Origin: Eledone cirrhosa
Lineage: Eukaryota
Assembly (NCBI GenBank): GCA_964016885.1
Contig: OZ024742.1
Coordinates: 209,932,001-209,996,000, forward strand
Direction: 5' to 3'
DNA length: 64,000 nt
The notes below the pieces were generated by a model. It saw nothing but the letters and a program-made list of their open reading frames with translations, did no database searches and had not been told where the DNA came from. This document shows positions 26,626-53,084 of the stretch, piece after piece; positions within the stretch are counted from its first letter, which is position 1, and each line of letters opens with the position of its first letter. A program made the position numbers and the translations under genes.

Positions 26626-26835
26626 TGATCCTTCTTGGCAGTATCGACTGATATGAAAATTCAACGATTAAGTAGTATATCATTTCACACGCTGGCTGCC
26701 TGACACTGTCTGACGAATCCAGCGAGCTCACCAAAGACCGTGCATGCGCAAGAATGATTGCGACTCCCCTCTGCCCACTTTTGTCTTCCTAACGTCATTA
26801 CATTGGGAAAAAATAAAGCCGAATACATATAGATA

Positions 26836-29800
26836 TATTTCTTTATTTACCATAAAGGCATAAAAAGAAGGGACAAATACAAAGGGGGAGTTTACATAAA
26901 ACCAAGTAAAAAGGGTATAAAATGAAAATAATCGAAAACAACCTCAAAAGGGAGGGAACGTGATGGGGGTTGCACACCCCCCCGAAAAAGTGTGCAATCC
27001 TTTGCCCGGGGAGCACATGGAGAAGGTGCTCCCCTCTCCTTCACTTCTTTACCTACAGGATGGTATACAGAGAAGGCCCATTTACACGAGCCATTCTCGC
27101 CACTATCACCCACCTTTCATAAAACTGCCTGTGGCCAAGCACCTCTCCCTCCATTCTTATCCTTCTTCCGAAGTGATATCGGAAGAAGTAGACCAGACTA
27201 TGGCCAGAGAGGAATTTGCCTGACCTCAGACCTTTCAATCGTGTCCACCAAACAACCGCTTTCAACATGGCTATTACGCACAGAAAAACCGCCTTTGCTT
27301 CCTTTGTGAAGAGGGGAGGCGGCTTGATTGTCTTCACGGACTCGGCGGTCAATCGAATCGGTGCCACCCGCGATAGCAGTCGTTCGGCGTAGCCCCACAG
27401 ATCAGCCACTCCCGGACATTGCACCAATGCGTGCGCAACGGTTTCTTCGTGACAAACGCATCTAGGACAAAGCTTTTTTCGGGGGATCCCTGCCCGGGCG
27501 CCCGTGTCTGTAGAGCCTCTCTCGAACGGGTAGAGCCCCCCGGTAGCACTGCCAGGCTAGTGACTTCTAGAAGTTGTCCATTGGTCCCGGGCCGAAAGTC
27601 CTACCGAACAGGCTGGTCAGTTCGTTCTCTTCCATGTCCAGTGACTCTCCAAGGGTGTCATCGCCTCTGCTAGCCACCAGCCCTCTATAGAATGATGAGG
27701 TGGATTCTCCACCGATGGCCGGGCCCGCTTGCCAGAGAGCCCTGAGCGCCTGGGCACACTCAGTGTGCCAGTCTCCCAGTTTTCCGGATCTTTGCTTGAC
27801 CCAGGAGTGCAGCTCGGTGAGCGAGACGAGTCTCAGAAAGGCTCGTTTCACGAACGGAGCCCACACCGGTTGACCAGTGAGGAATACCTGTAGGTGCCGT
27901 AGCCTTAATGCGTGCCTACGCATCATCAACCACGGCATCCCCAGCCCTCCTTTCGAAGGTTGTTGGCAGCAGATGGATCTTCTCACCATAGGAGGGCGCT
28001 TCTTCCAAAGAAATTGGAAGAGCATGCGTTCCATGGTGGTGAGTGTTTCCTTAGGGCAAGGCACGACAGTCAGGCAGTAGTAAGTGACGGACGCTATGTA
28101 AATGTTCGCCACCTCCGCCCGACCTTTTAGGGACAGCTTACACTTGGCCCATTTCTGGGTTAGTGCAAACACCTTGTTCGTAACCTCGTCCCAGTTCTTT
28201 TCCACCTGGAGGTCCGGTCCAAACCAGACCCCAAGCAACTTCACCGGGCCCTCCGTCCAGTGTCCGACGACACCGTCGGGAGGCATCGGTCTGCCTCTCC
28301 ACGTTCCGAGTTGCAGCCCGATGGATTTTTCCCGGTTCAGTTTCGCTCCTGACGACCTTTCGTAATCCTCCAGTAAGGTACCGATCGCCTCGATCTCCGA
28401 GTCGGTCGATACCATTACTGTTACGTCATCGGCGTAGGCCGACACCGCTTTGCTCAATCCTGGTTCCAGGGGGATACCCTGCAACAACCCCAACTTCCTC
28501 AGTAAAGGCTCGAGAGTCAATACGTACAGAAGGGAGGAGAGAGGGCACCCCTGTCGAATGGATCGTGTGATTTCGAACGGCTTCGAAAGGTAGCCGTTCA
28601 CCTTGATCCTAGAACAGATGTGGTTGCTATGTAAGGCAGTGATCCAGCCTCTGAAAACAGGACCGAACCCAGCCGCCGCTAGCACCGCATCCAGGTAACC
28701 ATGGTCGACCCTATCGAAGGCCTTAGACTGATCCAAGTTGATCAGGGCCCCACCGAAGCCGGGTTTGTTGCCAACCCTCTCTATGATGTATCGCATGAGG
28801 TGGAGGTTATCGTGAATGAACCTGGATGGGATAGCACATGTCTGCGCATCTCCCACCAGGCCACCCACGACAGGCGCCAACCTCTTTGCTAACACCTTGG
28901 CCAAAATCTTTAACTCTGTGTTTAGCAGGGTTATGGGCCGAAAATTATTTATACTATCCCCCTTGTTCTCGTCCTTCCTCACCAGCGAGACTACGCCCTT
29001 GGCTACAGAACAAGGAATTCTCCCGTTCTGCTGCCAATTGCAGTAGACCGCTTCGAGGAGTTCGGAGAAGAAAGCCGGCATTGCTAAATAAAGTTCGTAA
29101 GGTATACCATCGAGACCTGGAGATTTGCGTCTGCTGCATTAGCTCAGCGCATCCCCGATCTCATCAGCCGAGATTGGTCCCTCGCAGGACTCTGCCTCTT
29201 CGCTCGAGAGACGCGGCAGGCCGTCGAGGTATGGACCAAAATCCACGTCCCCACCCGGATCCTCGCCTCCCCCGAATAATCGGGCAAAGTGCCTTTGAAA
29301 GGCCTCGCACATCTGCTTAGGCTCCCGGATCACCCGTCCATCCTCGTCTTGCAAAGACCGGATGGTGGATCGATTTCCACTCTTAGCTTCTGTCACGCGG
29401 GCCCAGCCAACGGCTTTGGCCCCCTCATTACCTAGAGCACGTATTTTACTTCGAATGACGCAGCCTTCGTGCTTTGCATCGAAAAACTGGCTCAATGCCG
29501 TCCTCGATGCCAGCACTCTGGCCACATCTTCGCTCTTGATTGCCTCTTCTAATTTACCTGTTAATTCTTTCTCGTTTCTATTCCTATCGGCAGCTAACAT
29601 CTTGCTATAACTTATTGATTCTGTTCTAATCTCTCTTTTGAGAGATGCCCACCATCGGTTGTTGACGATTGCACCCGTCAACCTCTCCTTAACTAATCTG
29701 CTAATCCGGTTTCTGTAAGTCTCTTTTGCCGGTAAAGACAAATTAAGTTTCCAGTAACCGGGACCCTGTTTATGTGTTTTCTCGAGATTGACTACGCAGG

Positions 29801-32648
29801 TCACTAATTTGTGATCCGTATAGCCAACCGGACAGCTTAATATGTCCCTATCCTTACTTCTAACTAAGAATCTATCTAAGTACGATCTAGATTGACCACT
29901 ATGGTTCGTCCAAGTCCAGGTTGGCACAGTCGGAAAATCTAGTCGATATCTATCGACCAAGTTAAAACGGTCGAGTAACCCCTTGAGGCTGTTACACTCC
30001 CCTCTATTAGGACATGCTCCTGCATAGTCTCAACGTGCATCTAGGATGTCATTCCAATCCCCCGCTAGAAGCAGGGAACGCGACGTTCCCAGAAAAGTCT
30101 CCAAACGCTGGAAGAAGTCGGGCCGTTCAGCTCCGAAAGGGGAGTAGACGGCGACCAGTCTCAAGGCCGCACCTTCACTACTGCCAACGTCTAGCACCAA
30201 CAAACGACCCTCCGGGTCCGAGTGAACAACCTGTACGGCAAGACCCAGGTGTTTTTCCAGCAGTACGACAACCCACCCCCACCTCCAGGTTGACAGAGAG
30301 ATGCATGCACCTCAAAGTCATCGAAGGTAGGGGCCAGCTGCCGCACGACGCTGATCCGAGTCTCACAGATAACCATTACATTTATACCACGTGACCTGAG
30401 GTCATTTAAAAGCTTTGCTTGCTTCCAAGTTGAGCCCAGGCCACGTGCATTCAAACATCCTACTCTTAACACATCCATGTCGGCGGCAAAGCCAAAGGAG
30501 AGTGTAAAGACCTACCTTTCTGTTTCCCGGGGTTCGGGTCGCACGACTTCCATGGGGTCGGGGGTGTTGGGTGAAGGGGTGTCTTGTGGTGGTGTGGGGT
30601 CGTCAGTGTGTGGTGGGGTTGGGGTGTTTTGAGTTGTGTTGGGGAGGGAAAGGGGAGGGGTAAAGCTTTTTAGTAGGACGTGGTTTATGGGTTTGACAGA
30701 GGGTGGTCCTACGTCCTCCTTAAAATCCTTTTTTAGTTTTTGGTAGAGGTTCATTGGGATCTTTATTAATTTTAAATGTGGGTAGTTTTCTGAAGAAACA
30801 AAGTTTACACCTTCGGTTTGTACCGAAGGGTTATTGTTTATGAGTTCATTTAATTTATTATTGTTTCTGTTGATGTAAGTATAGTGTAATGTCTTTTTTT
30901 CGGATGGTGTGAGTGTTTCGAAGAGGGGAGGGGCAGGTTTGGTTTTGTTTGTTGCTGGAGGGGTGTTTTGTGTTTTGTTGGATTGTGTTGACATTTGGGT
31001 AGGGGTTGTTTGGCCTTGTGTGTTTTGCACATGTTTTCTTTTTTTCCTTTTAATCTGTCTGAAGGACTCCGTTTCTTCCTCCGAATTCGTTGGGTTATCT
31101 TCAGTGTTGGAGGGAAGAGGTATGTTTGCTGGTAATGTTTCCGTGTTAGTTTTCTTTGTGGGGGAGATGGATGTCACTATGTTAGATTGTGTTGTGTGTT
31201 GTGGCTGCGGTGGTTGTGTTGTTTTATTGGGTGAGGGGTTGGGTGGGACTGTGTTTTGTTTTTGGGTAATGTGTTGTGACTGTTTGTGTTGTGGTGGTGG
31301 TGTAGTTTTACTGAGGGACGGGTTGGGTGCGACTGAGTTTTGTTGTTTGTTTATCTGTTGTGGTGGTGGTGGAGCTGGTGTTGGTAGCAGTGTTTTCTTC
31401 TTGTTGAGTTGGGGACAAGCCGCCTTCAGGTGCCCTCTGCCTGCACAGATATGACAGGACGGCCTTCTCCCCTCCACGCTAATGTTTATATACCCGTGGC
31501 CCTCTAATAGGATTCTGTCGGGTATTTGGGCAATGCGTTGAGGCTTCATTTGCACCACAAGTTCTATACCTGTTCCACTGAACGCATTGCCTGTGGTTTT
31601 CCCAATGGAAATCACGTTGTCATTCGCTGGATCGATGAAGCCATCTATGAGCCAGCAGTAGTCCACATCTGGCATCATCGCATCCAGCCATATGCGCTGA
31701 GTTCTTTTACCCATATAAGATGGATAAAAGGTAAAATTTGTTGAACGAATCAGCGACAAAGCATATTTTTTTGCCGCCGATTCGTTCTTCATAATAATCG
31801 CTAGGCTTCCATACAGTCTGTCTCTTCTTATGAAAGTGGTTTCACTAAGTACTTCTGTAAGTACTGCTTTGATTTCTGTTTGTTTGGTTGTTGAGTTTTT
31901 TAGAAATGTTGTTGATGGTGCGGAAAACGACCGTCCGACTTTCAATGTCTTTGGTGAGTTCTTGAGGCATTTTTACCGATAAAATACCATTTTCCCCTTG
32001 AGTTATGTATTGTTTGGCGTTTTTAATTCTTTGTGCCACATCTGAAATATTTTCAGGTATATATGTCAAAGATTTCTTTGTTGTTTGTGCAAATGAAATA
32101 TTATTGGTGTTGACTTTGTCGTCTGCTTTGCTTTCTGTTATGATGTTGTTTTCAAATGTTATTTTTGTGTTTGTTGTGTCTTTGTTTGTGGTATTAATAT
32201 TGTCATGCAATTTTTCAAATTTTTTTTTGTTGTTGGAATCAATGTCCAGATTTGTGTTTTCGTCATTTTTCTCCGCACATTCGTCTGTTTTTATTTTATT
32301 TTTTCTTTCCTTCTCTATGACGTTAGTTGGGAAGGAATGGGGGACTAAAGCGTGCGAGCTTACAACTCTTACCGCTGTCCCCTCACCACTATTTTCGTTA
32401 GCTTCGTTTAACATTTCTGTCAGACGATTGAAATTTTATGCCACAAAATTTCAAAAAACAGGTTTTTCACTCCTGGGAGGGGCGAAGATGAGCTGACTCA
32501 CCGCCTGACAGTTCAGACGGGGGGTCAAGCTACACAATAGTATCAAAATTAAAATTGAACTTACAAAATTTCAGCAATAAATTTGAACAAAACTTCTGCG
32601 CGAAGTGAATTACATCTACGCTGTCGAACAGACGACAGCTAGATCCTT
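26836..32648 (-). mobile_element. full-length degenerate Tx1-like LINE (copy A) with an 18-bp TSD
   Basis: ORF1 ~32414-30512 (CHICAGRGHLKAAC knuckle; frameshifted) and ORF2 30478-27053 (several disruptions). TSD GCCGAATACA(T/G)ATAGATA at 26818-26835 and 32649-32666. Confidence 0.95.
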
Positions 32649-32657
32649 GCCGAATAC

Positions 32658-32726
<69 letters not shown>

Positions 32727-33998
32727 TCTTTATTTGACACAGGGGCGTACAAAAATAGGACATTACAAGACGTGACGGCGGGGCTTTTACATAAAATCTT
32801 TAACAATGATGAATAACAATAAACTATATATAAAATAACAATTGAAATCCTCAATGGGGGGGGTCGTTACTGCGGGGTTGCTTTACACCCCGTGGTTAGA
32901 ACAACCCTCAACGCTTGGTAGACGGCTGTGAGCGCGTGAAGGCACTCGAGGTGCCAGGCGCCCATTTTCGGTCTTCGCTTGACCCAGGACTTCAGCTCTG
33001 TTAGTGAGACGAGTTGTGGAAGCGCTCGTCTCACAAGCGACAGCCACACCGGTTCGCCGGTCAGGAATACCTGGAGATGGCGTAGCCTCAGCGCGTGTTT
33101 GCGCATCATCAGCCACGGCATACCCAGTCCTCCGTTAGATGGATCTCACCAATAGAGCCTATTTCTTCCAGAGGAACTTGAAGTGTAGGCGTTCCATTTT
33201 GGTGAGGTATTCACGGGGAAAAGGCCCGACAGTCAAGCGGTAGTAGATGACGGACGTTATGTAAATGTTCGCCACCTCTGCACGACCTTTCAAGGAGAGT
33301 TTGCACTCAGCCTACTTCTGGGTGAGTGCAAACACCTTCTTCGCCGTGACCTCGTTCCAGTTTTTCTCCACCTGGAGGTCTGGACCAATCCAGACCCAGA
33401 GGAATTACACCGGTCCTTCCGTCCAGCGTCCAACAACACTATCGGATGGCATCGGTTTGCCTTTCCATGTGCGGAGTTGCAAACCGACAGACTTATTTGA
33501 GTTTAGTCTTGCTCCTGTCAACGTTTCGTATTCCTGTAATAGGTTCCCGATTAGCCCAATTTCCGAGGTTTTCGATAACATTACAGTTACGTCGTCGGCA
33601 TAGGCCGACGCTACTTTCCGCAATCCTGGTTCGATCGGGATGCTCTGCAACAGTTTCAACTTCCAGAGTAATAGCTCAGTATATACAGTAATAGAGTCAG
33701 TACATACAGAATGGAGGAGAGAGGGCATCCCTGACGGATTGAACGCATGATTTGGAATGGCTCCGATAGGTAGCCATTCACCTTGAATGCCGAGCAGATG
33801 CTGGTGTGCATGGCAGCGATCCAGCCTCTGAAGACGGGGCCGAAGCCGGCCGCCTTGAGATCCGCATCCAAGTATTGATGGTCGAAACTATCAAATGCCT
33901 TACACTGATCTAAATTGATCAGAGCCCCACCGAAGTCAGGTTTACATCCTACCCTCTCTATGATGTATAACATGAGGTGGAGGTTGTCGTGTATGGAC
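32727..33998 (-). mobile_element. 5'-truncated, internally deleted Tx1-like LINE (copy B)
   Basis: Starts at SIHDNLHLM, includes AYADD and ends AATAAA-(TATC)n. (GATA)n lies on both sides. Confidence 0.9.
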
Positions 33999-34009
33999 AG
34001 ATAGGTAGG

Positions 34010-34096
<87 letters not shown>

Positions 34097-34359
34097 GTTT
34101 CTTTTATTTGCCACTAGGGCATCAAAAGTGGGACAAGTACAAAGGGGGGAGTTTACACAAAAAGGCGTCCTCAATAAGGAGGAGGCAATAACAAAATATA
34201 AAAATAAAATAAGATATAACAAAAAATAAAATTTTTAACAAAATCCTCAATAGAGAGGAGGCGCCTTGGGGGGTCGCACACACCCCCGAAAAAAGTGTGC
34301 AACCCTTTTCCTCAGGAGCACAGAGAGGGGGTGCTCCCTCGTTCCTTCCTCTTTTCCAC

Positions 34360-37300
34360 CTACAGGCTTATGTAAAGAGAAGGCCCATTCACACGGGCCA
34401 TTCTCGCCACTTTCACCCACCTTTCATAAAAACGACTGGGGTGCAGCACCTCTCTCTCCATCCTGATCCTTCTTCCGAAATGATATCGGAAGAAACGGAC
34501 CAGTTGTTGGCCAGAGAGAAAGGTGCCTGACTTCAGTCCTTTCAGACGCGTCCACCATACAACCTCTTTCTCCATGGCTATTACGCACAGAAACACCGCC
34601 TCTGCTTCATCTTTGAAGGGGGGAGGCGGCTTGATCATTACAATAGACTCGGTGGTCAACCGGATCGGTCCCACCCTTGACAGCAGTTGTTCGACATAGC
34701 CCCACAGATCGGCTACGCCCGAGCAGTGTACCAATGCGTGTGCAACGGTTTCCTCGTCGCACACGCATCTGGGACAGATCTTTTTGGCGGGGTCCCTACC
34801 CGGGCGCCCGTGTCTGTAGAGCCTTTCTCGAACGGGTAAAGCCCCTCGGTAGCACTGCCAGGCCAGGGACTTCTGGAAGTTGTCCATAGGTCCCGGGCTG
34901 TATGTCCTACCGAACAGGCTGGCCAGTTCGTCCTCCTCCATGTCTAGGGCTTCTCCGAGGGCGTCGTCGCACCTGCTGCGTACCAGCCCTCTATAGAATG
35001 TTGCGGTGGAGTCTCCACTGATAACCGGATCCGCCTGCCAGAGGGCGGTGAGCGCCTGGGCACACTCAGTGTGCCAGGCGCCCAGTTTTCTCGGTCTTTG
35101 CTTGACCCAGGATTGCAGCTCGGTGAGTGAGACGAGTCTGGGAAAGGTTCGTCTCACAAACGAGGCCCACACCGGTTGTCCGGTGAGGAATACGTAGAGG
35201 TGCCGTAGCCTTAATGCGTGTTTACGCATCATTAGCCACGGCATCCCCAGCCCTCCTTTCGAAGGGTGTTGACAGCAGATGGATCTCCTCACCATAGGAG
35301 CCCGCCCCTTCCAAAGTAATTGGAAGAGCGCGCGCTCCATCTTGGTGAGGGTTTCCCTTGGGCAGGGCACTACGGTCAGGCGGTAGTAGATGACGGACGC
35401 TATATAAGTGTTCGCCACCTCCGCCCGACCTTTCAGGGATAGTTTGCAACTGGCCCACTTCTGGGTCAGTGCAAACACCCTGTTCGTAACCTCCGCCCAG
35501 TTTTTCTCCACCTGGAGGTCCGGTCCGAACCAGACCCCGAGCAACTTCACCGGGCCCTCCGTCCAGCGTCCGACGACGCCATCGGAGGGCATCGGTCTGC
35601 CCCTCCACGTGCCGAGTTGCAAACCGATCGACTTGTCCCGGTTCAGCTTAGCCCCTGTGAACTTTTCGTACTCCTCCAGTAAGGTGCCGACCGCCTCGAT
35701 TTCGGAGGCCGTCGACACCATTACTGTCACATCATCGGCGTAGGCTGACATCGCTTTCCGCAATCCCGGTTCCAAAGGGATGCCCTGCAACAACTCCAAC
35801 TTCCGCAGTAGTGGCTCGAGAGTCAACACATACAGAAGGGAGGAGAGAGGGCACCCTTGTCGGATGGACCGCGCGATTTTGAACGGCTCCGAGAGGTAGC
35901 CGTTCACCTTGACCCTAGAGCAGATGCGGCTGCTGTGCATAGCAGTGATCCAGCCCCTGAAAACGGGTCCGAAGCCTGCCGCCGCTAGCACCGCATCCAG
36001 GTAACCATGGTCGACCCTATCGAACGCCTTAGATTGATCCAAGTTGATCAGAGCCCCACCAAAGCCGGGTTCGTTCCCAACCCTCTCTATGATGTATCGC
36101 ATGAGGTGGAGGTTGTCATGGATGGACCTGGACGGGATAGCGCATGTCTGCGCATCTCCCACCAGGTTGCCCACGACAAGCGCCAACCTCTTTGCTAGCA
36201 CCTTGGCCAAAATCTGTAACTCTGTATTTAGCAGAGTTATGGGCCTGAAGTTACTTATTTCGTCCCCCTTGTTCTCGTCCTTCCTCACTAGCGTGACTAC
36301 GCCCTTGGTCACAGTACAGGGAATTCTCCCGTTCTGTTGCCAGTTGCAGTAGACCGCCTCGAGGAGATCGGGGAACAAGTCCGGCATAGCTAGATATAAT
36401 TCGTAAGGAAGACCATCGAGACCCGGGGATTTGCGTTTGCCGCATTGGCCCAGCACGTCCTCTATCTCAGCGGCCGAAATCGGCTCCTCGCAAGACTTCG
36501 CCTCCCTGTCCGAGAGGCGCGGCAGGCCGTCGAGGTATGGACCGAAGTCCACGTTTCCAACCGGCTCCCCGCCCCTCCCGAACAGTCGGGCAAAGTGCCT
36601 TTGAAAGGCCTCACACATCTGCTTAGGCTCAAGAATCGCCCGTCCATCCAGGTCTCGCAAAGACCGGATGGTGGATTTAGTTCCACTGTTGGCCTCTGTC
36701 ACGCGGGCCCAGCTAACAGCTTTGGCCCCCTCGTTCCCTAGAGCACGTATTTTACTTCGGACAACGCAGCCTTCGTGCTTCGCGTCGAAAAACTGGCTCA
36801 AAGCCGTTCTCGACGCTAGCACTCTGGCCACGTCGCCGCTTCTAATTGCCTCTTCTACTCTATCTATTAGCTCCCTTTCCTTCCTATTCCTATCCGCAGC
36901 TAGAACCTTACTAAATTCAATCGAGACTACTCTAATCTCTCTCTTTAGAGATACCCACCACCTGCTGTTGACGATCGCTCCAGTCAACCGTTCCTTAACT
37001 AACCTACTAATCCGATTCCTGTAGGCTCTACTTGCCGGCAAGGACAAGTTGAGCTTCCAGTAACCGGGGCCCTGTCTATGCGTTCTATCAAGGTTGACCA
37101 TGCAGGTCACCAACTTGTGGTCTGAATAGCCAACCATGAGCATTTCTGGACAACTTAAAAAGTCCCTGTCCTTATTTCTAACTAAAAATCTATCTAGGTA
37201 CGATCTAGATGATCCGCTGCGATTTGACCAAGACCAGGTTGGCACCGTCGGAAAATCTAGTCGAAATCTATCGGCCAGGTCAAATCGGCCGAGTAACCCC

Positions 37301-37797
37301 TTGAGGCTGTTGCACCCCTCTCTATCGGGACATGCCCCTGCATAGTCCCAACGTGCATCCAGGATACCATTCCAATCCCCCACTAAAAGCAGGGAACGGG
37401 ACGTCCCTAGAAAAGACTCCAGACGCTGGAAAAAGTCGGGCCGCTCTGTCCCAAAAGGGGCATATGCGGCTATCAGCCTAAGGGCTCTACCTTCACCACT
37501 GCCAAGGTCCAGCACTACCAGTCGACCCCCTGGGTCCAAGTGAACTATCTGTGTTGCAAGGCCCATATGTTTTTGCAGCAGAACGACAACCCCACCCCCA
37601 CCTCCGGGCTGACAGAGAGATGCGTGCATCTCAAAGTCGTCAAAGGTGGGGGCTAGCTGTCGCATGCTGCTGATCCGGGCCTCGCAGATAACCATCACAT
37701 TTATAGATTGTGACCTGAGGTCATTTAGAAGCATTGCTTGCTTCCAAGACGAGCCCAGGCCACGCGCATTTAGACACCCTACTCTTAGCACAGCCAT
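34360..37797 (-). CDS. ORF2: AP endonuclease, reverse transcriptase and CCHC finger (1145 aa from the ATG)
   Basis: Uninterrupted ORF with CLNARGL, GDWNG, SYLDRF, SDH, GPGYWKLN, KSPGLDGL, NFRPITLLN, DQSKAFD, RQGCPLS, AYADD, KGGLG and CPRC..ETVAHALVHC, typical of the L1/Tx1 clade. Confidence 0.96.
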   Translation of the reverse strand: MAVLRVGCLNARGLGSSWKQAMLLNDLRSQSINVMVICEARISSMRQLAPTFDDFEMHASLCQPGGGGGVVVLLQKHMGLATQIVHLDPGGRLVVLDLGSGEGRALRLIAAYAPFGTERPDFFQRLESFLGTSRSLLLVGDWNGILDARWDYAGACPDREGCNSLKGLLGRFDLADRFRLDFPTVPTWSWSNRSGSSRSYLDRFLVRNKDRDFLSCPEMLMVGYSDHKLVTCMVNLDRTHRQGPGYWKLNLSLPASRAYRNRISRLVKERLTGAIVNSRWWVSLKREIRVVSIEFSKVLAADRNRKERELIDRVEEAIRSGDVARVLASRTALSQFFDAKHEGCVVRSKIRALGNEGAKAVSWARVTEANSGTKSTIRSLRDLDGRAILEPKQMCEAFQRHFARLFGRGGEPVGNVDFGPYLDGLPRLSDREAKSCEEPISAAEIEDVLGQCGKRKSPGLDGLPYELYLAMPDLFPDLLEAVYCNWQQNGRIPCTVTKGVVTLVRKDENKGDEISNFRPITLLNTELQILAKVLAKRLALVVGNLVGDAQTCAIPSRSIHDNLHLMRYIIERVGNEPGFGGALINLDQSKAFDRVDHGYLDAVLAAAGFGPVFRGWITAMHSSRICSRVKVNGYLSEPFKIARSIRQGCPLSSLLYVLTLEPLLRKLELLQGIPLEPGLRKAMSAYADDVTVMVSTASEIEAVGTLLEEYEKFTGAKLNRDKSIGLQLGTWRGRPMPSDGVVGRWTEGPVKLLGVWFGPDLQVEKNWAEVTNRVFALTQKWASCKLSLKGRAEVANTYIASVIYYRLTVVPCPRETLTKMERALFQLLWKGRAPMVRRSICCQHPSKGGLGMPWLMMRKHALRLRHLYVFLTGQPVWASFVRRTFPRLVSLTELQSWVKQRPRKLGAWHTECAQALTALWQADPVISGDSTATFYRGLVRSRCDDALGEALDMEEDELASLFGRTYSPGPMDNFQKSLAWQCYRGALPVRERLYRHGRPGRDPAKKICPRCVCDEETVAHALVHCSGVADLWGYVEQLLSRVGPIRLTTESIVMIKPPPPFKDEAEAVFLCVIAMEKEVVWWTRLKGLKSGTFLSGQQLVRFFRYHFGRRIRMEREVLHPSRFYERWVKVARMARVNGPSLYISL

Positions 37798-37821
37798 GTT
37801 GGTGGTAAAGAGAAAAGGCAC

Positions 37822-39465: not shown

Positions 39466-39496
<31 letters not shown>

Positions 39497-39896: not shown

Positions 39897-39953
<57 letters not shown>

Positions 39954-40004: not shown

Positions 40005-40091
<87 letters not shown>

Positions 40092-43100: not shown

Positions 43101-45768
43101 ACATTTGTGGTCAGATTAACATTTTCCTCTCTCTCTCTCTCTAATAAAAAAAAAACCTATGTAAATACGATCTAGATGTCCCGCTGCCATTTGTCCACGT
43201 CCACTGTGGTGCAGTCGAGAAATCTAGTCGATACCTATCGGCCAGTTGTAATTGGCCGATTAAATTGAGGTTGTTGCGTCCCCCTCTACTGGGACATGTT
43301 CCTACGTGCATCTAGTATACCATTCCAGTCCCCAATTAAAAGCAAGAAGCGAGACGTTCCCAGAAAAGACTCTAGACGCTTAAAGAAATCTGGCCGCGAT
43401 TGCCCAGTCGGGGCATAAACGGCCACCAGTCTGAAGGCTCCACCTCCAGTATTGTTTAGGTCTAGCACTACCAGCTTATCTTCCGGGTCCAAGTATATTT
43501 GCTGTATTTCGAGGTCCAGGTTTTTCCGAAACATGACAGCCCCCCCCCCCCTCCTGACTGACAGAGAGATGCGTAGATCTCAAAGTCATTGAAGATGGGG
43601 ATTAATTGCTGCTTCTTGTGGATCCTGGACTCGCTGATGGCTATCACATCTATACCGTGTGACCTAAGGTTGTTTAAAAGTTGGCCCTGTTTCCAGGGTA
43701 TCCCTAGGCCACGCACATTCACACATCCAACTAGTAAATTAGCCATGTTGGTGGAGAAGAGTTGGCGACAAAGGCGAAAAGATGCACTTACCTTTTCGTT
43801 TCCTAGAGATCGGGTTGTTCAATCTCCTTTTGGGTGCTGGTGGGGGTGTTGGGTGGTGAAACATTTTAATAGGACGCGGTTTATGGATTTTTGGCAAGGG
43901 GTCCCGACGTCCTGCAAAAATTCGTTTTTCAGTTTGTTGTAAGTTTCCATAGGAACTGTTATCAATTTCAGGTGTGGTGCTGATCCTGATTTCACGAAAG
44001 TTTTCCCCTCGGTCTCCACTTTGGGGTTTTTGGAGATGACCTCCATCAGGTTTTTGTTGTTGGTGTTGATGTATGCGTATTGTTGTTTGTGTTTTTGTTG
44101 TGTTGTTTTTGTTTGTAATTCATTTGGGAGTTTTCTTTTTATGGTGGGTGTTTGTGTTTGGGGTGGTGTTGGTAGGGGGAGGTTTGTGTTGTTGTTTGTG
44201 TCGGCAGTTGTGTATTTGTGTTGGTGATTGGTGTTTTTGTGGCTTTGCGGTGTTTCTTTTATTGTTTTTTTTATTTCCGAGGCTCTCTTTTATCCTCGCT
44301 TGGCGATGGAGAAGTAGCTTCCTCTGATGATGAATCGTCATCAGGGGCGTGCGGGAGGGGTATGTTGTGTGGTGATGGTGTGTTTGTGTGTGTGTTTGTG
44401 GTAGTGTTGGATGGAGTGGGATGGGGTGGGACTGTGTTTTTCAGGGGAGTTGTCTGTGTTTTTTCTGTTGTTTGTGGTTGAGTGGTTGCTTGTTTTGGTG
44501 TTTGCTTGTTTTGTGTGGTGTTGTTGTTGTAGTGGTGGTAGTTTTGGTGGTGATTTTGGTAAGAGTAATTTTTTGTCTTGTTTTTTGAAGTTTGTCTGTA
44601 AAGGGCAAGAGGCCTTTAAATGCGAAAACATCGAAAACAGTGCGGCCGCTTGTTTTCAGTAGAAATGTTGAAGTGGCTGTTATTGTCTACTAGTACCCTC
44701 TCTGGAATCTTGGAGATTCTCTCCGGCCTCATTTGTACCAAAACTTCCAAATTTGTACCAGACCACGTGTGTCTGGTTGATGTTTTAATGGGGAGGGTGG
44801 TATCCTCTCCCTCTTCTAAAAATCCTCCCCAAATCCACCAAATATTGATATTTGGTAGTATATTGAAGATTTTTATCTTCTGAGTTGTTTTTCCCAGGTA
44901 AGTAGGGAAAAAGGTGTAGTTGGCAGATGTGACCGGAGTCACAGAATATTTTTGTGCGAGAGCCTCGCTTTTGAGGATCACCGAAATGCTTCCATACAGT
45001 CTGGCCCTCTGCATAAATCTATGTCCGGCAAAGCCTCCTTCAATACCGTTTCTATTTCCCCTTGACTGAAGAATGCCGGCTTCCTTGTAGCATTTGCAAC
45101 AGTTCTGAAGGTAACAGTCCTTCGGAGAGTTTCAAAGCGGATTTCGGGGTGTGAGTTTATTTTAAACCCGCCCTTTTCTTCGAAAGTCACAAATTGTTTT
45201 CCTTCTCTCAGCGTCTCGCTAGCATTGGAGATATCGAGATTTTTTAAATCTTGTTTTTTTTTTGTTAGTCTCAGCGAAAGATATTTTTTTGGTATTGTTG
45301 TTGTTGTGGTTGTCACATTTTTGGTTTATGGTTGTGGAAATTGTCTCATTATCTGTGGTTTTTGTTGTGTGTTCTGTGCTGTGTGGTCCATTTTGTTAGT
45401 CTCTTGTTTCGCTTTCTTGGCGAAAAAAAACTATGTTGTCACATTTGTAACCATAGTGACGCCTATGCCGGCAGACGTCTTGGAAACGTTAACTGTTGCC
45501 TTTCTCTCTCCATTAGCTTTAGCGGAGACAAGCGTTCCTTCTTCGTTTGCCATTGTTGATAGCAGAATAATTTTTCTTTTTTTCAAAACTTTTTCAAATA
45601 AAATTTCCGCCCCTCTGAGGCGAAAAATGAGATTACCCACCAGCTGACAATTCAGCCGGGGAGGTTAATCTACGAAACAATGTGTTTTTTCAACAAAGGT
45701 TTCGGATTTTTTGCATGCAAAATTAACAAAAAAACTTACCAGCGAAGCAGCGCAGGTCAATACTATCC
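40122..45768 (-). mobile_element. full-length degenerate Tx1-like LINE (copy D)
   Basis: ORF1 remnants at 45552-43788 (RPHCFRC..SHLKASC) and ORF2 remnants at 43746-40357, with many frameshifts. Confidence 0.93.
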
Positions 45769-45777
45769 GAGATAAAT

Positions 45778-46336
45778 ATGTTTCTTTATTAGCCACAGGG
45801 GCACAAAAGAAGGGGACAAATACAAAGGGGGAAGTTTACATACAATAAAAACGTGTAAAATGTTATCACAAATGCAATTTAAAAAAGTGGTCGATTTTCC
45901 CCAATAGGGGGAGACAGTTCATATGGGTAACACATACCCCCGAAAAAATGTGCAACCCTCATCTCCAGGAGTACGAAGAGTTTGTACTCCTTTCCTCTCC
46001 TCCTCCTTTTCCTCAACCTACAGGCTGATATAGAGAGAAGGCCCATTCACTCGGGCCATTCTCGCCACTTTCACCCACCTTTCATAAAACTTGCTGGGGT
46101 ACAGCACCTCTCTCTCCATCCTGATTCTTCTTCCAAAGTGGTATTTGAAAAAAGAATCAGTTGTTGGCCGGAGAGAAAGGTGTCTGACCTCAGCCCTTTC
46201 AACCTTGTCCACCATACAACCTCTTTCGCCATAGCTATCACACAAAGGAAAATCGCCTCTCCTTCGCTTTTGAAGGAGGGTGGCGGTTTGATCATGACAA
46301 TGGACTCGGTGGTCAACCGGATTAGTCCCACCCGCG
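45778..46336 (-). mobile_element. Tx1-like 3' end segment (E1)
   Basis: ORF2 C-terminus (..NGPSLYISL) plus a complete 3' UTR with AATAAA. It is fused upstream to the incomplete 3' UTR of E2. Confidence 0.88.
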
Positions 46337-49300
46337 AGGAAATCCCCAATAGGGGGGAGGCGTTACACGGGGGTTGTACACACCCCGAAAAAATGTACAA
46401 CCCTCATCTCCAGGGGCACCACTTCCTCTTTTTCCTCAATCTACAGACTTATATAGAGAGAAGGCCCAACCACTCGGGCCATCTTTGCCACATTCACCCA
46501 CCTTTTATAAAATTTGCTGGGATACAGCACCTCTCTCTCCATCCTGATTCTTCTTCCAAGATGGTATTTGAAAAAGCGAATCAGTTGTTCGCCGGAGAGA
46601 AAGTGTCTGACCTCAACCCTTTTAACCTCGTCCACCATATAATCTCTTTTACCATAACGATAACACATAGGAAAACCGCCTCTCCTTCGTTTTTGAAGGA
46701 GGGTGGCCGTTTGATCATGACAGTGGACTCGGTGGTCAACTGGATTAGTCCGACCCGCGACAAAAGTCGTTCTACATAGCCCCACAGGTCGGTAACGCCC
46801 GGGAAGTGTACAAATGAGTGCGGTTTCTTCGTCTCGCACGCATCTAGGACAGATCTTTTTGAAGGGTCCCTGACCGGGCGCCCGTGTCTGTAGAGCTTGT
46901 CGCGAACTGGTAGAGCTCCTCGGTAGCACTACCAGGCCAGGGACTTTTGGAAGTTGTCCATCAGTCCCGGGCGAAAGGTCCTACCGAACAGACTGGCCAG
47001 TTGATCTTCCTTTACGCCCCGAGTTTCTCCGAGCGGGTCGTCGCACTTGCTGCGGACCAACCCTCTATAGAATAACGAAGTGGAGTCTCCACTGATCGCC
47101 AGGTCCATTTTCCAGAGGACATTCGATGTGCTAGTCGCCCATTTTCCTCGGTCTTTGCTTGAACCAGGACTGCAGCTCGGTCAGCGAGACGAATCGTGGG
47201 AAGGCTTGCCTCACGAACGGGGCTCACACCGGTTGTCCGGTGAGGAATACGTGGAGTTGCCGCAGCCACGGCATCCCCAGCCCTCCGTTTGAAGGGTGTT
47301 GGTAGCAGATGGATCTTCTCACCAAAGGAGCCCGTTTCTTCCAAAGGAATTGAAAGAGCTCGCGCTCCACTTTGGTGAGGGTTTTGGCTGGACAAGGCAC
47401 GACTGTCAAGCGGTAGTAGATGACGGACGCTATAAAAGTGTTCGCCACCTCCGCTCGACCTTTCAAGGATAGTTTGCACTCGGCCCACTTCTGGGTGAGC
47501 GCAAACAACTTGGCTATCACCTCGTTCCAGTTCTTCTCCACCTGGAGGTCCGGACCAAACCAGACCCCGAGCAGCTTTACCGGTCCTTCCGTCCAGCGTC
47601 CGACGACGCCATCGGAAGGCATCGGTTTGCTCTCCACGTTCCGAGTTGCAAACCGACGGATTTGTCCCGGTTCAGGTTCGCTCTTGTGAACCTTTCGTAT
47701 TCCTTCAGTAAGGTGCCGACCTCCCCGATTTGCGAGGTGCTCGACACCATTACTGTCACGTCGTCGGCGTAGGCCGACGCTGCTTTTCGCAGTCCCGGTT
47801 CCAAAGGTATGCCCTGCGATAACTCCAGCTTCCGCAGTAGTGGCTCGAGAGTCAGTACGTACAGAAGGGAGGAGAGATGTCATCCCTATTGGATGGATCG
47901 CGTGATATGGAACGGCTCCGAGAGGTAGCTGTTCACCTTGACCCTTGAGCAGATGTTGCTGCTGTACATTGCAGCAATCCAGCGCCTGAACACGGGTCCG
48001 AAGCCTGCCGCCTCGAGGACCGCATCCAGGTTACGATAGTCAACCCTATCGAAAGCCTTAGACTGATCAAAGTTGATCAGGGCCCCACCAAAGCTGGGTT
48101 TATACCCTACCCTCTCTATGATGTATCGCATGAGGTGGAGGTTGTCGTGTATGGACCTGGTCGGAATTGCGCATGTCTGCGCTTCTCCCACCAGGTTTTT
48201 GACGACAAGCGCCAGCCTCTTTGCCAACACCTTGGCCAAAATCTGTAACTCTGTGTTTAGCAGAGTTATGGGCCGGAAGTTGCCTATGTCATCCCCCTTA
48301 TTCTCGTCCTTCCTGACTAACCTGACTGCGCCCTTGGTCACAGAACTGGGAATTCTCCCGTTCTGCTGCCAGTTGCAGTAGACCGCTTCCAGGAGACCGG
48401 AGAACAAGTCCGGCATTGCTACGTAAAATTTGTAGGTAGACCATCGAGACCTGGAGATTTGCGTTTGCGGCATTGGCTCAGCGCGTCCCCTATCTCAGCG
48501 GCCGAAATCGACCTTTCGCAGAACTTCGCCTCGCTGTCCGAGAATCGCGACAGGCCGTCGAGGTATGGACCGAAATCCATAGCCCCTCCCGGCGCGCCGC
48601 CCTGCCCGAACAGTTGAGCAAAGTGCCGCTGAAAGGCCGCGCACATCTGCTTCGACTCACGTATCACGCGTCCGTCTTGGTCCTTCAAAGACCGAATCGT
48701 GAACTTGTTGCCGCTTTTCGCCTCCGTCACTCGGGTCCAGCTAACAGCTTTGGCTCCCTCGTTTCTCAGAGCGCGTATTTTGCTCCAGACAACGCAGCCT
48801 TCATGCTTTGCGTCGAAGAACTGGTCCAAGGCCGTTCTCATCGCTAGCACGCTGGCTACGTTGCCACTCCTAAATGCCTATTCTACTTTATCTACCAGTT
48901 CCTTTTCGGTCTTATTTCTATCTAACACTAATTCTTTACTAAAAACCTATCGAGTCTAATCTAACTGCCCTCTTGAGAGAGTACCACCATCTGTTGTTGA
49001 TAATGGCCCCTTGTCAAGTGCTGCTTAACTAAAGTGCTAATCCGTCTACTGTAGGCTTTGCATGTCGGTAACGACAAGTTCAGCTTCCAGTAGCCGGGTC
49101 CCTGTCTATGGGTTCTGTCATGGTTTACTAAGCAGGTCACTAGTTTGTGATCTGAATAGGCAACTATGAACATTTGTGGACAGCTTAACATGTCCCAATC
49201 ACTAACTCTAACTAGAAACCTATCTAGGTACGATCTAGATGTTCCGCTATGGTTGGTCTACGTCCCCAGTGACACAGTTGGAAAATCTAGTCGATGTCTA

Positions 49301-51363
49301 TCGGCCAGTTGAAATCGGCCGATTAAGTGTTTGAGGCTGTTACACACCCCTCTATCGGAACATGCTCCTACATAGTCCCAACGTGCATCTAGGATTCCAT
49401 TCCAGTCCCACACTAACAGCAGGGAGCGGGACGCTCCCAGAAAAGTCTCGAGACGTTTGAAGAAGTCTAGCTGTGGCGTCCCAGATGGGGCATATGCGGC
49501 CACCAGCCTGAAGGCTCCACCTTCACTACCGTCAACGTCTAAGACCACCAGTCGACCCTCCGGGTCCAGATGTACCGTCTGTGTTACGAGGTCCAGGTGT
49601 TTCCGCAGCAAAACGGCAACCCTACCCCCACCTCCCGGCTGACAGACAGATGCGTAGATCTCAAAGCCGTCGAAGATGGGGCCAATTGTCGCTCGCTGTG
49701 GATCCTGGACTCGCAAATGGCTACTACATCCATACTGTGCGACCTGAGGTCGTTTAAGAGTTTGCCCTGTTTCCATGGCATCCCCAGGCCGCGTACATTC
49801 ACACATCTAACTTTTATATTGGCCACGTTGGTGCTGAAAAGTTAAAAGAAGAGGAAAAGAAATCACTCACCTCTTCGTCTCCTGGGGACACCAGGCTGCA
49901 CAATTTCCATGGGGTTGTTGGAGGGGTTGTTTGGTGGGGTGGTGGTTTCTGGCGGGGGTGGGGATGGAGATGTTTGGTGGGGAGGGGCTGTCAGGTGGGG
50001 GTGGGGTGGGGAAACATTTCAAAACGCACGTCCTTAGGAAAGTTTTCTTTTAAAGATTTGTATGTGTCCATGGGGACCCTAATCATTTTTAAATTAGGCC
50101 CTTCCAGACAGTACGAAAAAGTTTTAATATTTACTTTTGGTTAAAATATTTACTTTTGGTTGGATGCACGACTCTCTTATTTTCTGTGTCCTTTTTCCCA
50201 TGTATGTGGAGACACAGAATATTTTTGTGCCGTCACTTGGTCTTTCATGAGGACCGAAATGCTGCAAAAAAGTTTACCTTTTTGTATGAAGGTAATGTCC
50301 TTCATTGAGTCTTTTAACACCAGTTCAATTTCATTATGAGTTTGCAGCATAGAGTTATGGCCCTTTATGATCTGAGTTCAAATCCCGCCAAGGTTAACTT
50401 TGCCTTTCATCCTTACAGGGTCGATAAAATAAAGTACCAGTAATGCACTGAGATAATTGCTGGCCTTGTGCCAAAAGTAGAAATAATTATGAGTTAATTG
50501 AACTGGTTTTCTTGTGACATTAGATACTGTTCTAAAAACTAATGTTCTTAAAACATTTTCTCTGCGTAACTGTTGGGGGGAAGTAATGCTGAAGGTACTA
50601 TTCTCCCCAAATGTCATGTGTTGTTTTGCATCTTCCAGTAACTCTAGCTTTAGTGATGTCGATTTGCGTGTAAATTTCCGTTTTGTTTTTACTGTTTGCG
50701 CAAACGATATTTTGCTGTTGTTGTTGGTGTTGGTGTCGTCATTGTTGTTGTTGTTCTTGTTGTTGTTGTTGTTGGTGTTGTTTTGGTTCGTGCCATTCAC
50801 AGTTTTCATGTTATTGGTGCTGGTGTTGTTGTCGTCAGTGTGTTTTTTAAACATATCGACGTTTTCAACGTCTTTCACTGAGGTGGTACGAGGAGGTGCC
50901 TTCGGGCTTGGCACTCTTACCGCCTCTCCACCACTTCTGTCTAATTGTTGACTGACAGTTTTGATGTTTTTGTTGTTGTTTTTGTTGTTGCTGGTGTTAC
51001 TGTTGTTGTTGGTGGTGGTGGTGGCTGTATTAGAGACAGCAGCAGGCGAGCAGACCCGACCTGCCACTAGCACTGTGGAAGGTGGAATTAGCAGCCCATC
51101 TCCACAATTTTCTAATATATTTTTTGAGAAGACAAGGTCAAGACATTTAACCATTTTGGCTATTTTCAAAATTTAAGTAGAAATTTTGTGGTATTTCTCC
51201 CTTTTTCGCCCTGATGGGTTTATTATTTGGGGTTGCTACAACCTACAATGTGTAGGGTGACAGCTTATCTACAGAACGTTGTAAAAATGTAAGTTCAGTT
51301 CATGTAATTTCCAACAAAATTCAAGCTTTTATTCACCAGCGGATTTTCCACGTGTGTTCATCT
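46337..51363 (-). mobile_element. degenerate Tx1-like LINE (E2) with an internal ORF1 deletion and a SINE insertion
   Basis: ORF2 remnants at 49826-46441. ORF1 lacks the knuckle region (deletion near 50170). The 5' end abuts GATA repeats. Confidence 0.92.
50343..50490 (+). mobile_element. 5'-truncated SINE family 1 inserted in ORF1 of E2
   Basis: SINE body with TSD ATTATGAGTT at 50333-50342 and 50486-50495. Confidence 0.92.
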
Positions 51364-51381
51364 AAGATAGATAGATAGATA

Positions 51382-51988
51382 AATTTCTTTATTAGCCACA
51401 AGGTCACAAAAGAAGGGGACAAATACAAATGGGGAGTTTACATACAGGTATATGAAAATAAAACTATTAATAAAATAACAAATAACCATTGATATCCACA
51501 ATGGGGGGAGGTGTTACACAGGGATTGTACACACCCCGAAAAAAATGTACAATCCTCATCTCCAGGAGCACCAAGGGCGAGTACTCTCTTTCCCTTTTTC
51601 CTCAACCTACAGGCTTATATAGAGAGAAGGCCCAACCACTCGGGCCATCTTTGCCACATTCACCCACCTTTTATAAAATTTATTGGGGTACAGCACCTCT
51701 CTCTCCATCCTGATTCTTCTTCCAAAATGATATTTGAAAAAACGAATCAGTTGTTCGCCGGAGAGAAAGGTGTCTGACCTCAGCCCTTTTAACCTCGTCC
51801 ACCATATAACCTCTTTCACCATAGCCATAACACATAGGAAAACCGCCTCTCCCTCGTTTTTGAAGGAGAGTGGCGGTTTGATCATGACAATGGACTCGGT
51901 AGTCAACCGGATTGGTCCCACCCGCGACAATAGTCGTTCTACATAGCCCCACAGGTCGGTAACGCCCGGGCAGTATACAAATGCGTGC
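51382..51988 (-). mobile_element. 5'-truncated Tx1-like copy (F), close to E2
   Basis: ORF2 C-terminus plus 3' UTR, highly similar to 46340-46815 and flanked by GATA repeats. Confidence 0.92.
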
Positions 51989-52001
51989 AATACAAAGACA
52001 T

Positions 52002-52065
<64 letters not shown>

Positions 52066-52988
52066 TGTTTCTTTTATTTGCCACAAGGGCATCAAAAGTG
52101 GGACAAGTACAATGGGGGGAGTTTACAAAACAAGGCGTCCTCAATAGGGAGGAGGCAATAACAATATATAAAAATAAAATAAAATATAACAAAAAATAGA
52201 ATTATAACAAAATCCTCGATAGAGGATTTTGTTATAAAATATAACAAAAAATAAAATTTATAACAAAATCCTCAATAGAGAGGAGGCGCCTTGGGGGGTC
52301 GCACACACCCCCGAAAAAAGTGTGCAACCCTTTTCCTCAGGAGCACAGAGAGGGGGGTGCTCCCTCGTTCCTTCCTTTTTTCCACCTACAGGCTTATGTA
52401 AAGAGAAGGCCCATTCACACGGGCCATTCTCGCCACTTTCACCCACCTTTCATAAAAACGACTGGGGTGCAGCACCTCTCTCTCCATCCTGATCCTTCTT
52501 CCGAAATGATATCGGAAGAAACGGACCAGTTGTTGGCCAGAGAGAAAGGTGCCTGACCTCAGTCCTTTCAGACGCGTCCACCATACAACCTCTTTCGCCA
52601 TGGCTATTACGCACAGAAACACCGCCTCTGCTTCATCTTTGAAGGGGGGAGGCGGCTTGATCATTACAATAGACTCGGTGGTCAACCGGATCGGTCCCAC
52701 CCTTGACAGCAGTTGTTCGACATAGCCCCACAGATCGGCTACGCCCGAGCAGTGTACCAATGCGTGTGCAACGGTTTCCTCGTCGCACACGCATCTGGGA
52801 CAGATCTTTTTGGCGGGGTCCCTACCCGGGTGCCCGTGTCTGTAGAGCCTTTCTCGAACGGGTAAAGCTCCTCGGTAGCACTGCCAGGCCAGGGACTTCT
52901 GGAAGTTGTCCATAGGTCCCGGGATGAATGTCCTACCGAACAGGCCGGCCAGTTCGTCCTCCTCCATGTCTAGGGCTTCTCCGAGGGC

Positions 52989-52989
<1 letters not shown>
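52066..52989 (-). mobile_element. 5'-truncated Tx1-like copy (G), near-identical to copy C
   Basis: The 193-aa ORF2 C-terminus differs from copy C at only a few residues. There is a ~55-bp tandem duplication in the 3' UTR and (GATA)n on both sides. Confidence 0.95.

Positions 52990-53084
<95 letters not shown>

What the first reader, a model, noticed from the sequence alone, without database searches (positions are those of the whole stretch)
26818..53084. 26-kb same-strand pile-up of Tx1 LINEs inside one (GATA)n microsatellite: candidate GATA-specific family
Seen: eight copies or segments (A, B, C, D, E1, E2, F, G) from several distinct subfamilies lie head to tail on the minus strand. Almost every boundary is (GATA)n, including the 5' ends of truncated copies B, F and G, so the repeat behaves as a target and not only as a tail. 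The 3' ends are AATAAA plus ~5-10 nt then (TATC)n, with no poly(A). Copy A has an 18-bp TSD spanning unique DNA and the first GATA units. Established: some Tx1 families are microsatellite-specific (Kibi and Koshi in fish, on TTC/TC repeats). Inference: an APE that nicks one strand of (GATA)n explains the uniform orientation, and each insertion regenerates target, giving a self-growing safe harbour. I do not recall a GATA-targeted Tx1 family.
Basis: partly seen in the sequence, partly recalled or inferred. Interest (0 to 1): 0.78.

Follow-up and report, generated by a model that had tools for sequence, protein, structure and literature searches.

The report
Octopod LINEs stacked in GATA repeat
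Eight pieces of a jumping gene (a LINE retrotransposon, likely from an octopus) sit head to tail inside one GATA simple repeat, likely through separate insertions aimed at that repeat, which would add a new target sequence to a known class of repeat-seeking elements.

Summary
The array is real. Eight L1-group LINE segments lie on the minus strand at 26836-52988, and 8 of 9 junctions carry (GATA)n. The repeat abuts three 5'-truncated ends. The last tract has no element behind it, and copy A has a 17/18-bp target duplication with at most two repeat units at its 3' end, so GATA behaves as target, not tail.

The copies come from four lineages that diverged under purifying selection. The intact copy C sits between decayed B and D, which points to repeated insertion, not local duplication. 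Raw reads from a separate study show one more truncated-copy/GATA/next-copy junction.

A sister lineage in the window ends at (TAA)n instead, and a SINE with a similar tail inserts at C|ATTAT. Closest named relatives are Argonauta proteins (58-62%).

Microsatellite-targeting Tx1 LINEs are known (Kibi TC, Koshi TTC, crocodilian TTCC/TTTC). Ten paper searches found no GATA-targeting one; Repbase and Dfam could not be searched. Genome-wide flanks, formal Tx1 placement and endonuclease specificity remain untested. Verdict: new variant of a known kind.

The parts
26818..26835 (.). Left copy of copy A's target-site duplication: 10 unique bases plus two repeat units, one of them mutated
   Evidence: 17/18 identical to 32649-32666
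26836..32648 (-). Copy A, full length; ORF2 with 2 frameshifts and 3 stops; 84% identical to C over ORF2
32649..32726 (.). Right copy of the duplication (32649-32666) running into (GATA)17 (32659-32726)
32727..33995 (-). Copy B, 5'-truncated inside the RT region, with an internal deletion of about 700 bp; groups with D
33996..34095 (.). GATA tract, about 24 units, with GACA/GGTA variants next to B
34096..39891 (-). Copy C, full length and least decayed
34360..37797 (-). C ORF2, 1145 aa, uninterrupted: AP-type endonuclease (E39, Y112, D141, N143, D202, H227 present), RT (YADD), C-terminal C-x2-C...H-x4-C motif
   Evidence: Pfam; residues; model pLDDT 88.9; best fold match human L1 ORF2p E 1.6e-51
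37822..39673 (-). C ORF1 in two overlapping frames (one frameshift); zinc-knuckle match below Pfam's cut-off
   Evidence: zf-CCHC E 0.0026
39892..40123 (.). Longest GATA tract, about 58 units with variants
40124..45769 (-). Copy D, full length, decayed (9 frameshifts, 6 stops in ORF2)
45770..45778 (.). Degenerate 9-bp GATA spacer between D and E1
45779..46338 (-). Segment E1, 3' end of a copy, joined to E2 with no repeat
46339..51365 (-). Copy E2, 5' end present, 3'-terminal part lost, decayed (9 frameshifts, 7 stops)
50341..50487 (+). 5'-truncated SINE inserted in E2 ORF1 with a 10-bp duplication starting ATTAT
51366..51381 (.). (GATA)4 between E2 and F
51382..52001 (-). Copy F, 5'-truncated, with 11 extra bases at its 5' junction
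52002..52065 (.). (GATA)16
52066..52988 (-). Copy G, 5'-truncated, 98.8% identical to C over 200 ORF2 codons; truncation abuts the tract directly
52989..53084 (.). Terminal GATA tract, about 24 units; the DNA beyond it does not resemble any copy's 3' end, so it is no copy's tail
11922..16500 (-). Comparison element H1, outside the array: sister lineage (68-70% identical), 3' end at (TAA)6.7 (11922-11941), 5' end lost
16519..17487 (-). Comparison element H2, fragment of the sister group lying head to tail with H1, both ends lost

Best explanation
This is a head-to-tail stack of eight L1-group (likely Tx1-clade) LINE segments inside one (GATA)n tract, likely built by separate, sequence-directed insertions of an octopod LINE lineage that prefers this repeat. 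Shown: anatomy, junctions, duplication, lineages, interleaved decay. Inferred mechanism: the ORF2 endonuclease nicks the GATA strand at 5'-AGATA^G-3'; the freed 3' end primes reverse transcription at the RNA's end just after AATAAAGAAAnn (a small hairpin there may be the recognition signal); the second nick about 18 bases away duplicates 4-5 repeat units, so each insertion leaves target on both sides, and slippage regrows the tracts. Because only one strand is nicked first, every copy points the same way. Later deletions probably made the repeat-free E1/E2 join.
For: Repeat at 8 of 9 junctions and beside all 3 truncated 5' ends; background 0.0022. The terminal tract has no element behind it (shuffles score as well in 123-920 of 1000). 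A has only two units at its 3' end, both inside the duplication. Between lineages, third codon positions differ about 2-3.6 times as often as second (A-C 0.275 vs 0.090), so they come from separate active masters: C/G, A, B/D, E1/E2/F. Intact C (0 lesions) lies between B (5 in 1.08 kb) and D (15 in 3.4 kb), although tracts are only 593 of 26,267 bp (2.3%). About 2.7 kb of other perfect microsatellites outside the array hold no copy of this lineage. The 5 array copies long enough to place form one clade (SH-like 100, with one Argonauta protein), apart from H1/H2. Raw RAD reads of a separate study join a copy truncated at C position 35404 through a GATA-type spacer to another copy's 3' end (106 reads, one start). 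4 of 7 intact 3' ends read AGAAAnn|TATCT and E1 reads AGAAACA|TATTT. SINEs with a similar tail read AGAAAnA|ATTAT, and all 5 with a duplication have C on the far side of the nick (41 of 221 ATTAT sites do), a position an RNA tail cannot read. Precedent: Tx1L endonuclease nicks its target specifically (PMC1950540).
Against: One locus only; no genome held. None of the 24 loose ends shown (of 3,230) lies at an element end, so genome-wide flanks were not obtained. E1/E2 has no repeat and D/E1 only 9 bases, less than one duplication. One read joint (39620 to 35234; 119 reads, 2 starts) links two copies without GATA, though it lies by a RAD cut site at 35242-35244 and may be a ligation chimera. A tail of one or two UAUC units cannot be excluded. 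The SINE argument is indirect: its driver is unknown and its tail is not significantly like H1's (116 of 2000 shuffles). The 3' hairpin is weak (3 pairs, -1.9 kcal/mol, one compensatory change). No named Tx1 sequence was available for the tree.
Confidence: 0.7

Rival explanations
1. Homing by priming: the RNA ends in a few UAUC units, the endonuclease is loose, and only nicks in (GATA)n strands pair with the tail and prime well. Same array, different selector.
For: It explains orientation and the fixed phase of the 3' junctions. Repeat tails that may guide priming are proposed for RTE/Bov-B LINEs (PMC13295347 passages). No RNA run was available to read the transcript end.
Against: A, E1 and F carry 2, about 2 and 4 units, no more than a duplication supplies. 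SINE copies with a similar tail add no repeat and have a conserved C beyond the nick in 5 of 5. Bov-B copies with repeat tails are rarely flanked by like sequence (PMC13295347).
Confidence: 0.15
2. Microsatellite seeding plus local duplication or passive accumulation: each copy brings a GATA tail, and the stack comes from tandem duplication or from tolerance in a gene-poor region.
For: Seeding by LINE 3' tails is documented (CR1-L3/Rex with AATAG in snakes; PMC6050309 passages). The window is repeat-rich and I found no host gene in the 14 ORFs scanned. C and G are 98.8% alike; H1/H2 also lie head to tail.
Against: Neighbours are 74-85% alike with third-position excess; truncation points differ; no array copy sits inside another's ORF, while a SINE does; the terminal tract is not a tail; A has no tail beyond its duplication. 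The snake study found no element enriched beside ATAG repeats.
Confidence: 0.08
3. Assembly concatenation: separate loci were joined through their GATA tracts.
For: Four inner joins run through 64-232 bp of repeat, and the assembly's read type is unknown. No laid contig spans even copy C.
Against: The window has no N. D-E1-E2-F (about 12 kb) is joined by 9, 0 and 16 bp only. A's duplication ties its two ends. The same kind of junction is in raw reads. Even if joins were false, each half-junction would still put a truncated 5' end against GATA.
Confidence: 0.07

Closest known systems
Kibi (TC)n and Koshi (TTC)n, Tx1-clade LINEs of teleost fish (Kojima & Fujiwara 2004, not seen; as cited in PMC4494074 and PMC3812793, passages read)
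   Same: AP-endonuclease LINE found inside a microsatellite, with the repeat on both sides; pyrimidine-rich unit on the element's sense strand.
   Different: Unit is TATC; host is likely an octopod; relationship to Kibi/Koshi untested; a close sister lineage here ends at (TAA)n.
Crocodilian Tx1 families on (TTCC)n/(TTTC)n: Tx1-1_Crp, Tx1-5_Crp, Tx1-6_Crp, Tx1-1_Gav, Tx1-2/3/5/8_AMi (PMC4494074, section 15 read)
   Same: Tetranucleotide target; TATC differs from TTTC by one base.
   Different: Different unit and phylum; target preference there was scored on genome-wide flanks, here on one locus.
Tx1-Mar with SINEU (PMC4494074, passages read)
   Same: Target-preferring Tx1 LINEs with a partner SINE; sequential tandem insertion around a duplication is described for SINEU-3.
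   Different: Their target is a Mariner element; the SINE here has a different 3' junction from the GATA lineage, and its driver is not identified.
Other microsatellite-targeting LINEs: Waldo (ACAY), Mino (AC), Dong (TAA) (PMC3812793), Togen (TG) and some HERO families (PMC4640811); passages read
   Same: Microsatellite as landing site.
   Different: Other clades (R1 and restriction-like endonuclease groups; clade labels partly recalled); none listed on GATA.
L1-Tx1 families of Octopus vulgaris (PMC13282606: 80 families, 56 Mb in the supplement; 13 recently active families, 421 insertions)
   Same: Probably includes this lineage (inference; sequences not seen).
   Different: No target preference appears in the passages or supplement searched.

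Membership tests
L1 group of LINEs | ORF2 with N-terminal AP-type endonuclease, RT and C-terminal cysteine motif | tested here: met
   Pfam Exo_endo_phos, RVT_1, zf-RVT; profile best matches human L1 ORF2p E 9e-111 against R2 1e-36; fold match
L1 group of LINEs | Two ORFs, 5' truncation, target-site duplication | tested here: met
Tx1 clade | RT phylogeny groups with Tx1L, Keno, Kibi, Koshi | not testable with these tools
   No named Tx1 protein came; the tree has no such reference
Tx1 clade | ORF1 with a CCHC zinc knuckle (feature recalled, not from a call) | tested here: inconclusive
   zf-CCHC E 0.0026 in C and 0.00089 in H1, both under Pfam's cut-off; no Pfam hit in A
Target-specific Tx1 family (Kojima 2015 criterion) | One sequence type in more than 20% of genomic flanks | not testable with these tools
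   No genome. In the window 7 of 7 intact 3' ends and 6 of 8 5' ends abut the repeat directly, but all at one locus
Kibi / Koshi | Inserted in (TC)n or (TTC)n | tested here: not met
   Flanks are (TATC)n; definitions
Crocodilian TTCC/TTTC Tx1 group | Inserted in (TTCC)n or (TTTC)n | tested here: not met
Microsatellite-seeding LINEs (CR1-L3, Rex, RTE) | Repeat is a 3' tail only; 5' flanks unrelated | tested here: not met
   Repeat at truncated 5' ends and beyond the last copy
Stringent LINE/SINE pair | SINE shares the LINE's 3' tail | tested here: inconclusive
   Tail alignment reached by 0, 0, 2, 2 of 2000 shuffles for G, E1, C, F, but by 36, 116, 258, 366 for D, H1, A, B

The most novel reading that the evidence does not exclude
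Octopods carry a pair of sister LINE lineages, older than the split from Argonauta, whose endonucleases read two versions of one signature: C|TATCT (GATA repeats) and C|ATTAT (TAA-type sites, also used by an abundant SINE). The GATA lineage lives almost only in (GATA)n tracts, which serve as landing pads over long periods and grow into multi-family stacks. With an uninterrupted ORF2 in copy C, this is a natural target-switch pair for finding which residues set the specificity of AP-type endonucleases.
Probability: 0.35. Interest if true: 0.7.

Novelty: new variant of a known kind. Interest (0 to 1): 0.5.

Why it matters
How AP-type LINE endonucleases come to target microsatellites is poorly understood (PMC3812793 says so). 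A GATA-targeting lineage beside a TAA-ended sister at about 62% ORF2 identity makes the question directly testable by domain or loop swaps in an ordinary nicking assay. It would also extend microsatellite-targeting L1/Tx1 elements to molluscs. (GATA)n markers in octopods may often border multicopy LINEs, and such stacks are hard to assemble. It is not a new mechanism.

Tried and rejected
No genome is held for this window, so flanks of all copies could not be extracted.

Metagenome scan: 71 loci from 157 pattern matches, all distant (full-length matches 21-29%; best short segments up to 51%); none has a GATA/TATC run of 5 or more units, so they say nothing about this lineage. Viral contigs: 0 of 98 stretches and no match to a 3'-end-plus-TATC pattern. 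Prokaryotic genomes: 0 of 28 stretches.

Loose ends: I compared 17 of the 24 shown with the window's copies; by eye 16 are sequence of copy A, D, H1 or H2 type and one is unclear, so they are not flanks. The six from run X7 start at short low-complexity matches and were not compared. Joints at 39911/39913 to 39892 (492 and 217 reads, 24 starts each) fit 5' ends running into more GATA but have only 22 letters on the short side and could be pure-repeat reads; not used. 15 of 403 joints were shown.

Rfam: 75 matches at E up to 0.5, all below gathering scores, nearly all miRNA or snoRNA models on simple repeats; no ribozyme at the 5' ends. Folding of the four 5' ends gave z from -1.8 to +0.8. The ESM Atlas named no clade. 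The first tree run did not finish; one search used FastTree on 26 rows, 12 fewer. Our earlier findings hold nothing on this genome or sequence. A general minus-strand bias was rejected: an R2-group LINE, a Tx1-like crumb and 5 of the 6 SINE copies with a 3' end lie on the plus strand. The endonuclease hairpin loops differ between lineages, but five sequences cannot tie a residue to a target.
Full report
Observation. Self-comparison and translation show eight related LINE segments on the minus strand between 26836 and 52988: A, C and D full length, E2 with its 5' end but no 3' end, and B, E1, F and G 5'-truncated. All 9 perfect runs of three or more GATA units in the window lie in the array. 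Of 9 junctions, 8 carry the repeat. Of 16 segment ends, 13 match (TATC)n at 7 or 8 of 8 adjacent bases, against 140 of 63,327 background positions; the other three are A's 5' end, which reaches the tract across its duplication, and the two ends at E1/E2. The 7 intact 3' ends have AATAAA, 2-7 more bases, then the repeat, with no poly(A). Copy A is flanked by an 18-bp duplication with one mismatch, 10 bases unique and 8 repeat.

What the element is. Copy C has an uninterrupted 1145-aa ORF2 with endonuclease, RT and zf-RVT matches and the expected catalytic residues; its ORF1 has one frameshift and a weak zinc-knuckle match. A profile and a predicted model both match human L1 ORF2p best, so it is an L1-group LINE. 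The closest named proteins are from Argonauta hians, at 62% and 58%, so the host is likely an octopod (inference). 'Tx1' fits the architecture as I recall it, and O. vulgaris has 80 L1-Tx1 families (PMC13282606 supplement), but no named Tx1 sequence was available to test it. The family is abundant: 27,514 contigs of run X1 were laid on C, 4,195 of them at 99% or more. Four of the 24 listed runs, from two studies, hold at least half of its words; X1 may be the window's own source.

Separate insertions, not duplication. Over ORF2 the copies form four lineages: C/G (98.8%), E1/E2/F (90-94%), B/D (82%) and A (84% to C). Between lineages third codon positions differ about 2-3.6 times as often as second, the mark of divergence as active elements. 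Frameshifts plus stops are 0 in C, F and G, 5 in A (3.4 kb), 5 in B (1.08 kb), 15 in D, 16 in E2 and 1 in E1 (F, G and E1 are short, and stops next to frameshifts may be overcounted). Intact C therefore sits between two decayed copies with repeat on both sides, although tracts are only 593 of 26,267 bp. No copy lies inside another's ORF, whereas a SINE does.

Target, not tail. The repeat abuts the truncation points of G (1 base of microhomology) and B (up to 3), and of F across 11 extra bases. The last tract lies on G's 5' side, and the DNA beyond it is unlike any 3' end. A has only two units at its 3' end, both inside the duplication. In raw RAD reads of a separate study (run X22), 106 reads from one start join a copy truncated at C position 35404 through a GATA-type spacer to another copy's 3' end; no copy in the window is truncated there. 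Against this, a second joint (39620 to 35234, 119 reads, 2 starts) has no repeat; it lies by a cut site and may be a chimera. Only 15 of 403 joints and 24 of 3,230 loose ends were shown, none of the latter at an element end, so the genome-wide test was not obtained.

An internal comparison. Outside the array, H1 (68-70% identical to the array copies) has the same kind of 3' end but abuts (TAA)6.7, and H2 lies head to tail with it. In a FastTree tree the five array copies long enough to place form a clade with one Argonauta protein (SH-like 100), while H1, H2 and a second Argonauta protein fall outside it (83). Target thus tracks lineage, on one H-type 3' end. Six SINE copies end in AGAAA(C/T)A followed by ATTAT; five have duplications of 21, 18, 18, 11 and 10 bp, and all five are preceded by C, against 41 of 221 ATTAT sites. 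The SINE tail resembles the tails of G, E1, C and F (0, 0, 2, 2 of 2000 shuffles) but not clearly those of D, H1, A or B (36, 116, 258, 366). If a member of this LINE group moves the SINE, both signatures put the nick before a G on the primer strand (AGATA^G, ATAAT^G), and the G lies where only the enzyme can read it. Dong-R4, which targets TAA (PMC3812793) and is active in O. vulgaris (PMC13282606), is a rival driver.

Mechanism. Most likely (0.7) the endonuclease nicks the GATA strand in a fixed phase, target-primed reverse transcription starts at the RNA's end, and a second nick about 18 bases away duplicates 4-5 units, leaving target on both sides. These steps are inferred from junctions and from L1/Tx1L biochemistry (PMC1950540 passages), not shown. 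Rivals: selection by pairing of a short RNA tail (0.15), seeding with duplication or passive accumulation (0.08), misassembly through tracts (0.07). 'Safe harbour' was not tested.

Comparison with what is known. Kibi (TC)n, Koshi (TTC)n and crocodilian Tx1 families on (TTCC)n/(TTTC)n are the closest systems (PMC4494074; PMC3812793). Tandem insertion at a regenerated target is described for SINEU-3 and Utopia (PMC4640811). The array works like these but fails their target test, so it is not filed as Kibi or Koshi. Ten full-text searches gave no GATA-targeting LINE. That library lacks most subscription papers; Kojima & Fujiwara 2004 was not seen, the target labels of Fig. 3 and the supplements of PMC4494074 could not be read, and Repbase and Dfam could not be searched, so a prior entry is possible.

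Papers, as seen. PMC4494074: passages and section 15. PMC13282606: passages and a supplement search. Passages only: PMC3812793, PMC13295347, PMC6050309, PMC4640811, PMC9115989, PMC4758252, PMC3747384, PMC4824008, PMC1950540, PMC4455052. Earlier AI notes of this scan report similar cases with other units in other genomes; they are unchecked and only suggest that the habit is widespread.

Verdict. Observation confirmed, interpretation partly supported. A new target unit and host group for a known kind of element, with a testable sister-lineage contrast: new variant of a known kind, interest 0.5.

Noticed in passing
window 26198-26383, 53880-54075, 58599-58787, 18783-18951, 50341-50487 (+), 20988-21107 (-): A SINE family (tRNA-type head by recalled motifs) whose 3' end resembles the LINE 3' ends, with a hairpin of the same loop and the middle pair swapped; 6 of 6 copies end at ATTAT, and 5 have 10-21 bp duplications preceded by C. 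Candidate partner SINE.
   Followed up: partly
window 11922-17487: Sister-lineage copies H1 and H2 head to tail on the minus strand; H1 ends at (TAA)6.7; the H1/H2 join lacks a repeat, like E1/E2. H1-like sequence dominates the loose ends of run X22, so this lineage may be the more abundant one.
   Followed up: partly
window 32630-32646 and 17479-17495: An exact 17-base match between copy A's extreme 5' end, which folds into a hairpin and is about 28 bases longer than those of C, D and E2, and the DNA at H2's 5' break. Unexplained.
   Followed up: partly
window 51988-52001 and 40161-40174: F's 5' junction carries 14 bases identical to copy D's 3' UTR, found only at these two places; possibly a template switch.
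   Followed up: partly
5' UTRs of C (about 39860) and D (about 45740); end of C ORF1 (about 37820): Splice-donor-like GGTAAG motifs about 30 bases from the 5' end, and one at the ORF1 stop; not tested.
   Followed up: no
proteins P0271, P0424-P0427: Five pieces at 96-100% identity, at least three copies of a 41%-identical relative, share a longest-contig length of 26,301 bp (ENA), so probably one contig; a possible array in another organism. DNA not available.
   Followed up: partly
window 26532-26624 (+): A 93-bp crumb of a related ORF2 (58% aa) in the opposite orientation, 200 bp left of the array.
   Followed up: no
window 2000-5554 (-) and about 7000-9800 (+): A LINE with endonuclease, RT and C-terminal C2H2 fingers, which I read as RTE-type, and a decayed LINE whose RT matches R2 best; neither abuts GATA.
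   Followed up: no
window 21630-22883: A 1.25-kb (AT)n-type tract, the longest microsatellite in the window, with no LINE in it.
   Followed up: no
window 52200-52280: G's 3' UTR has an extra segment of about 55 bp that C lacks, although the two are otherwise near-identical.
   Followed up: no
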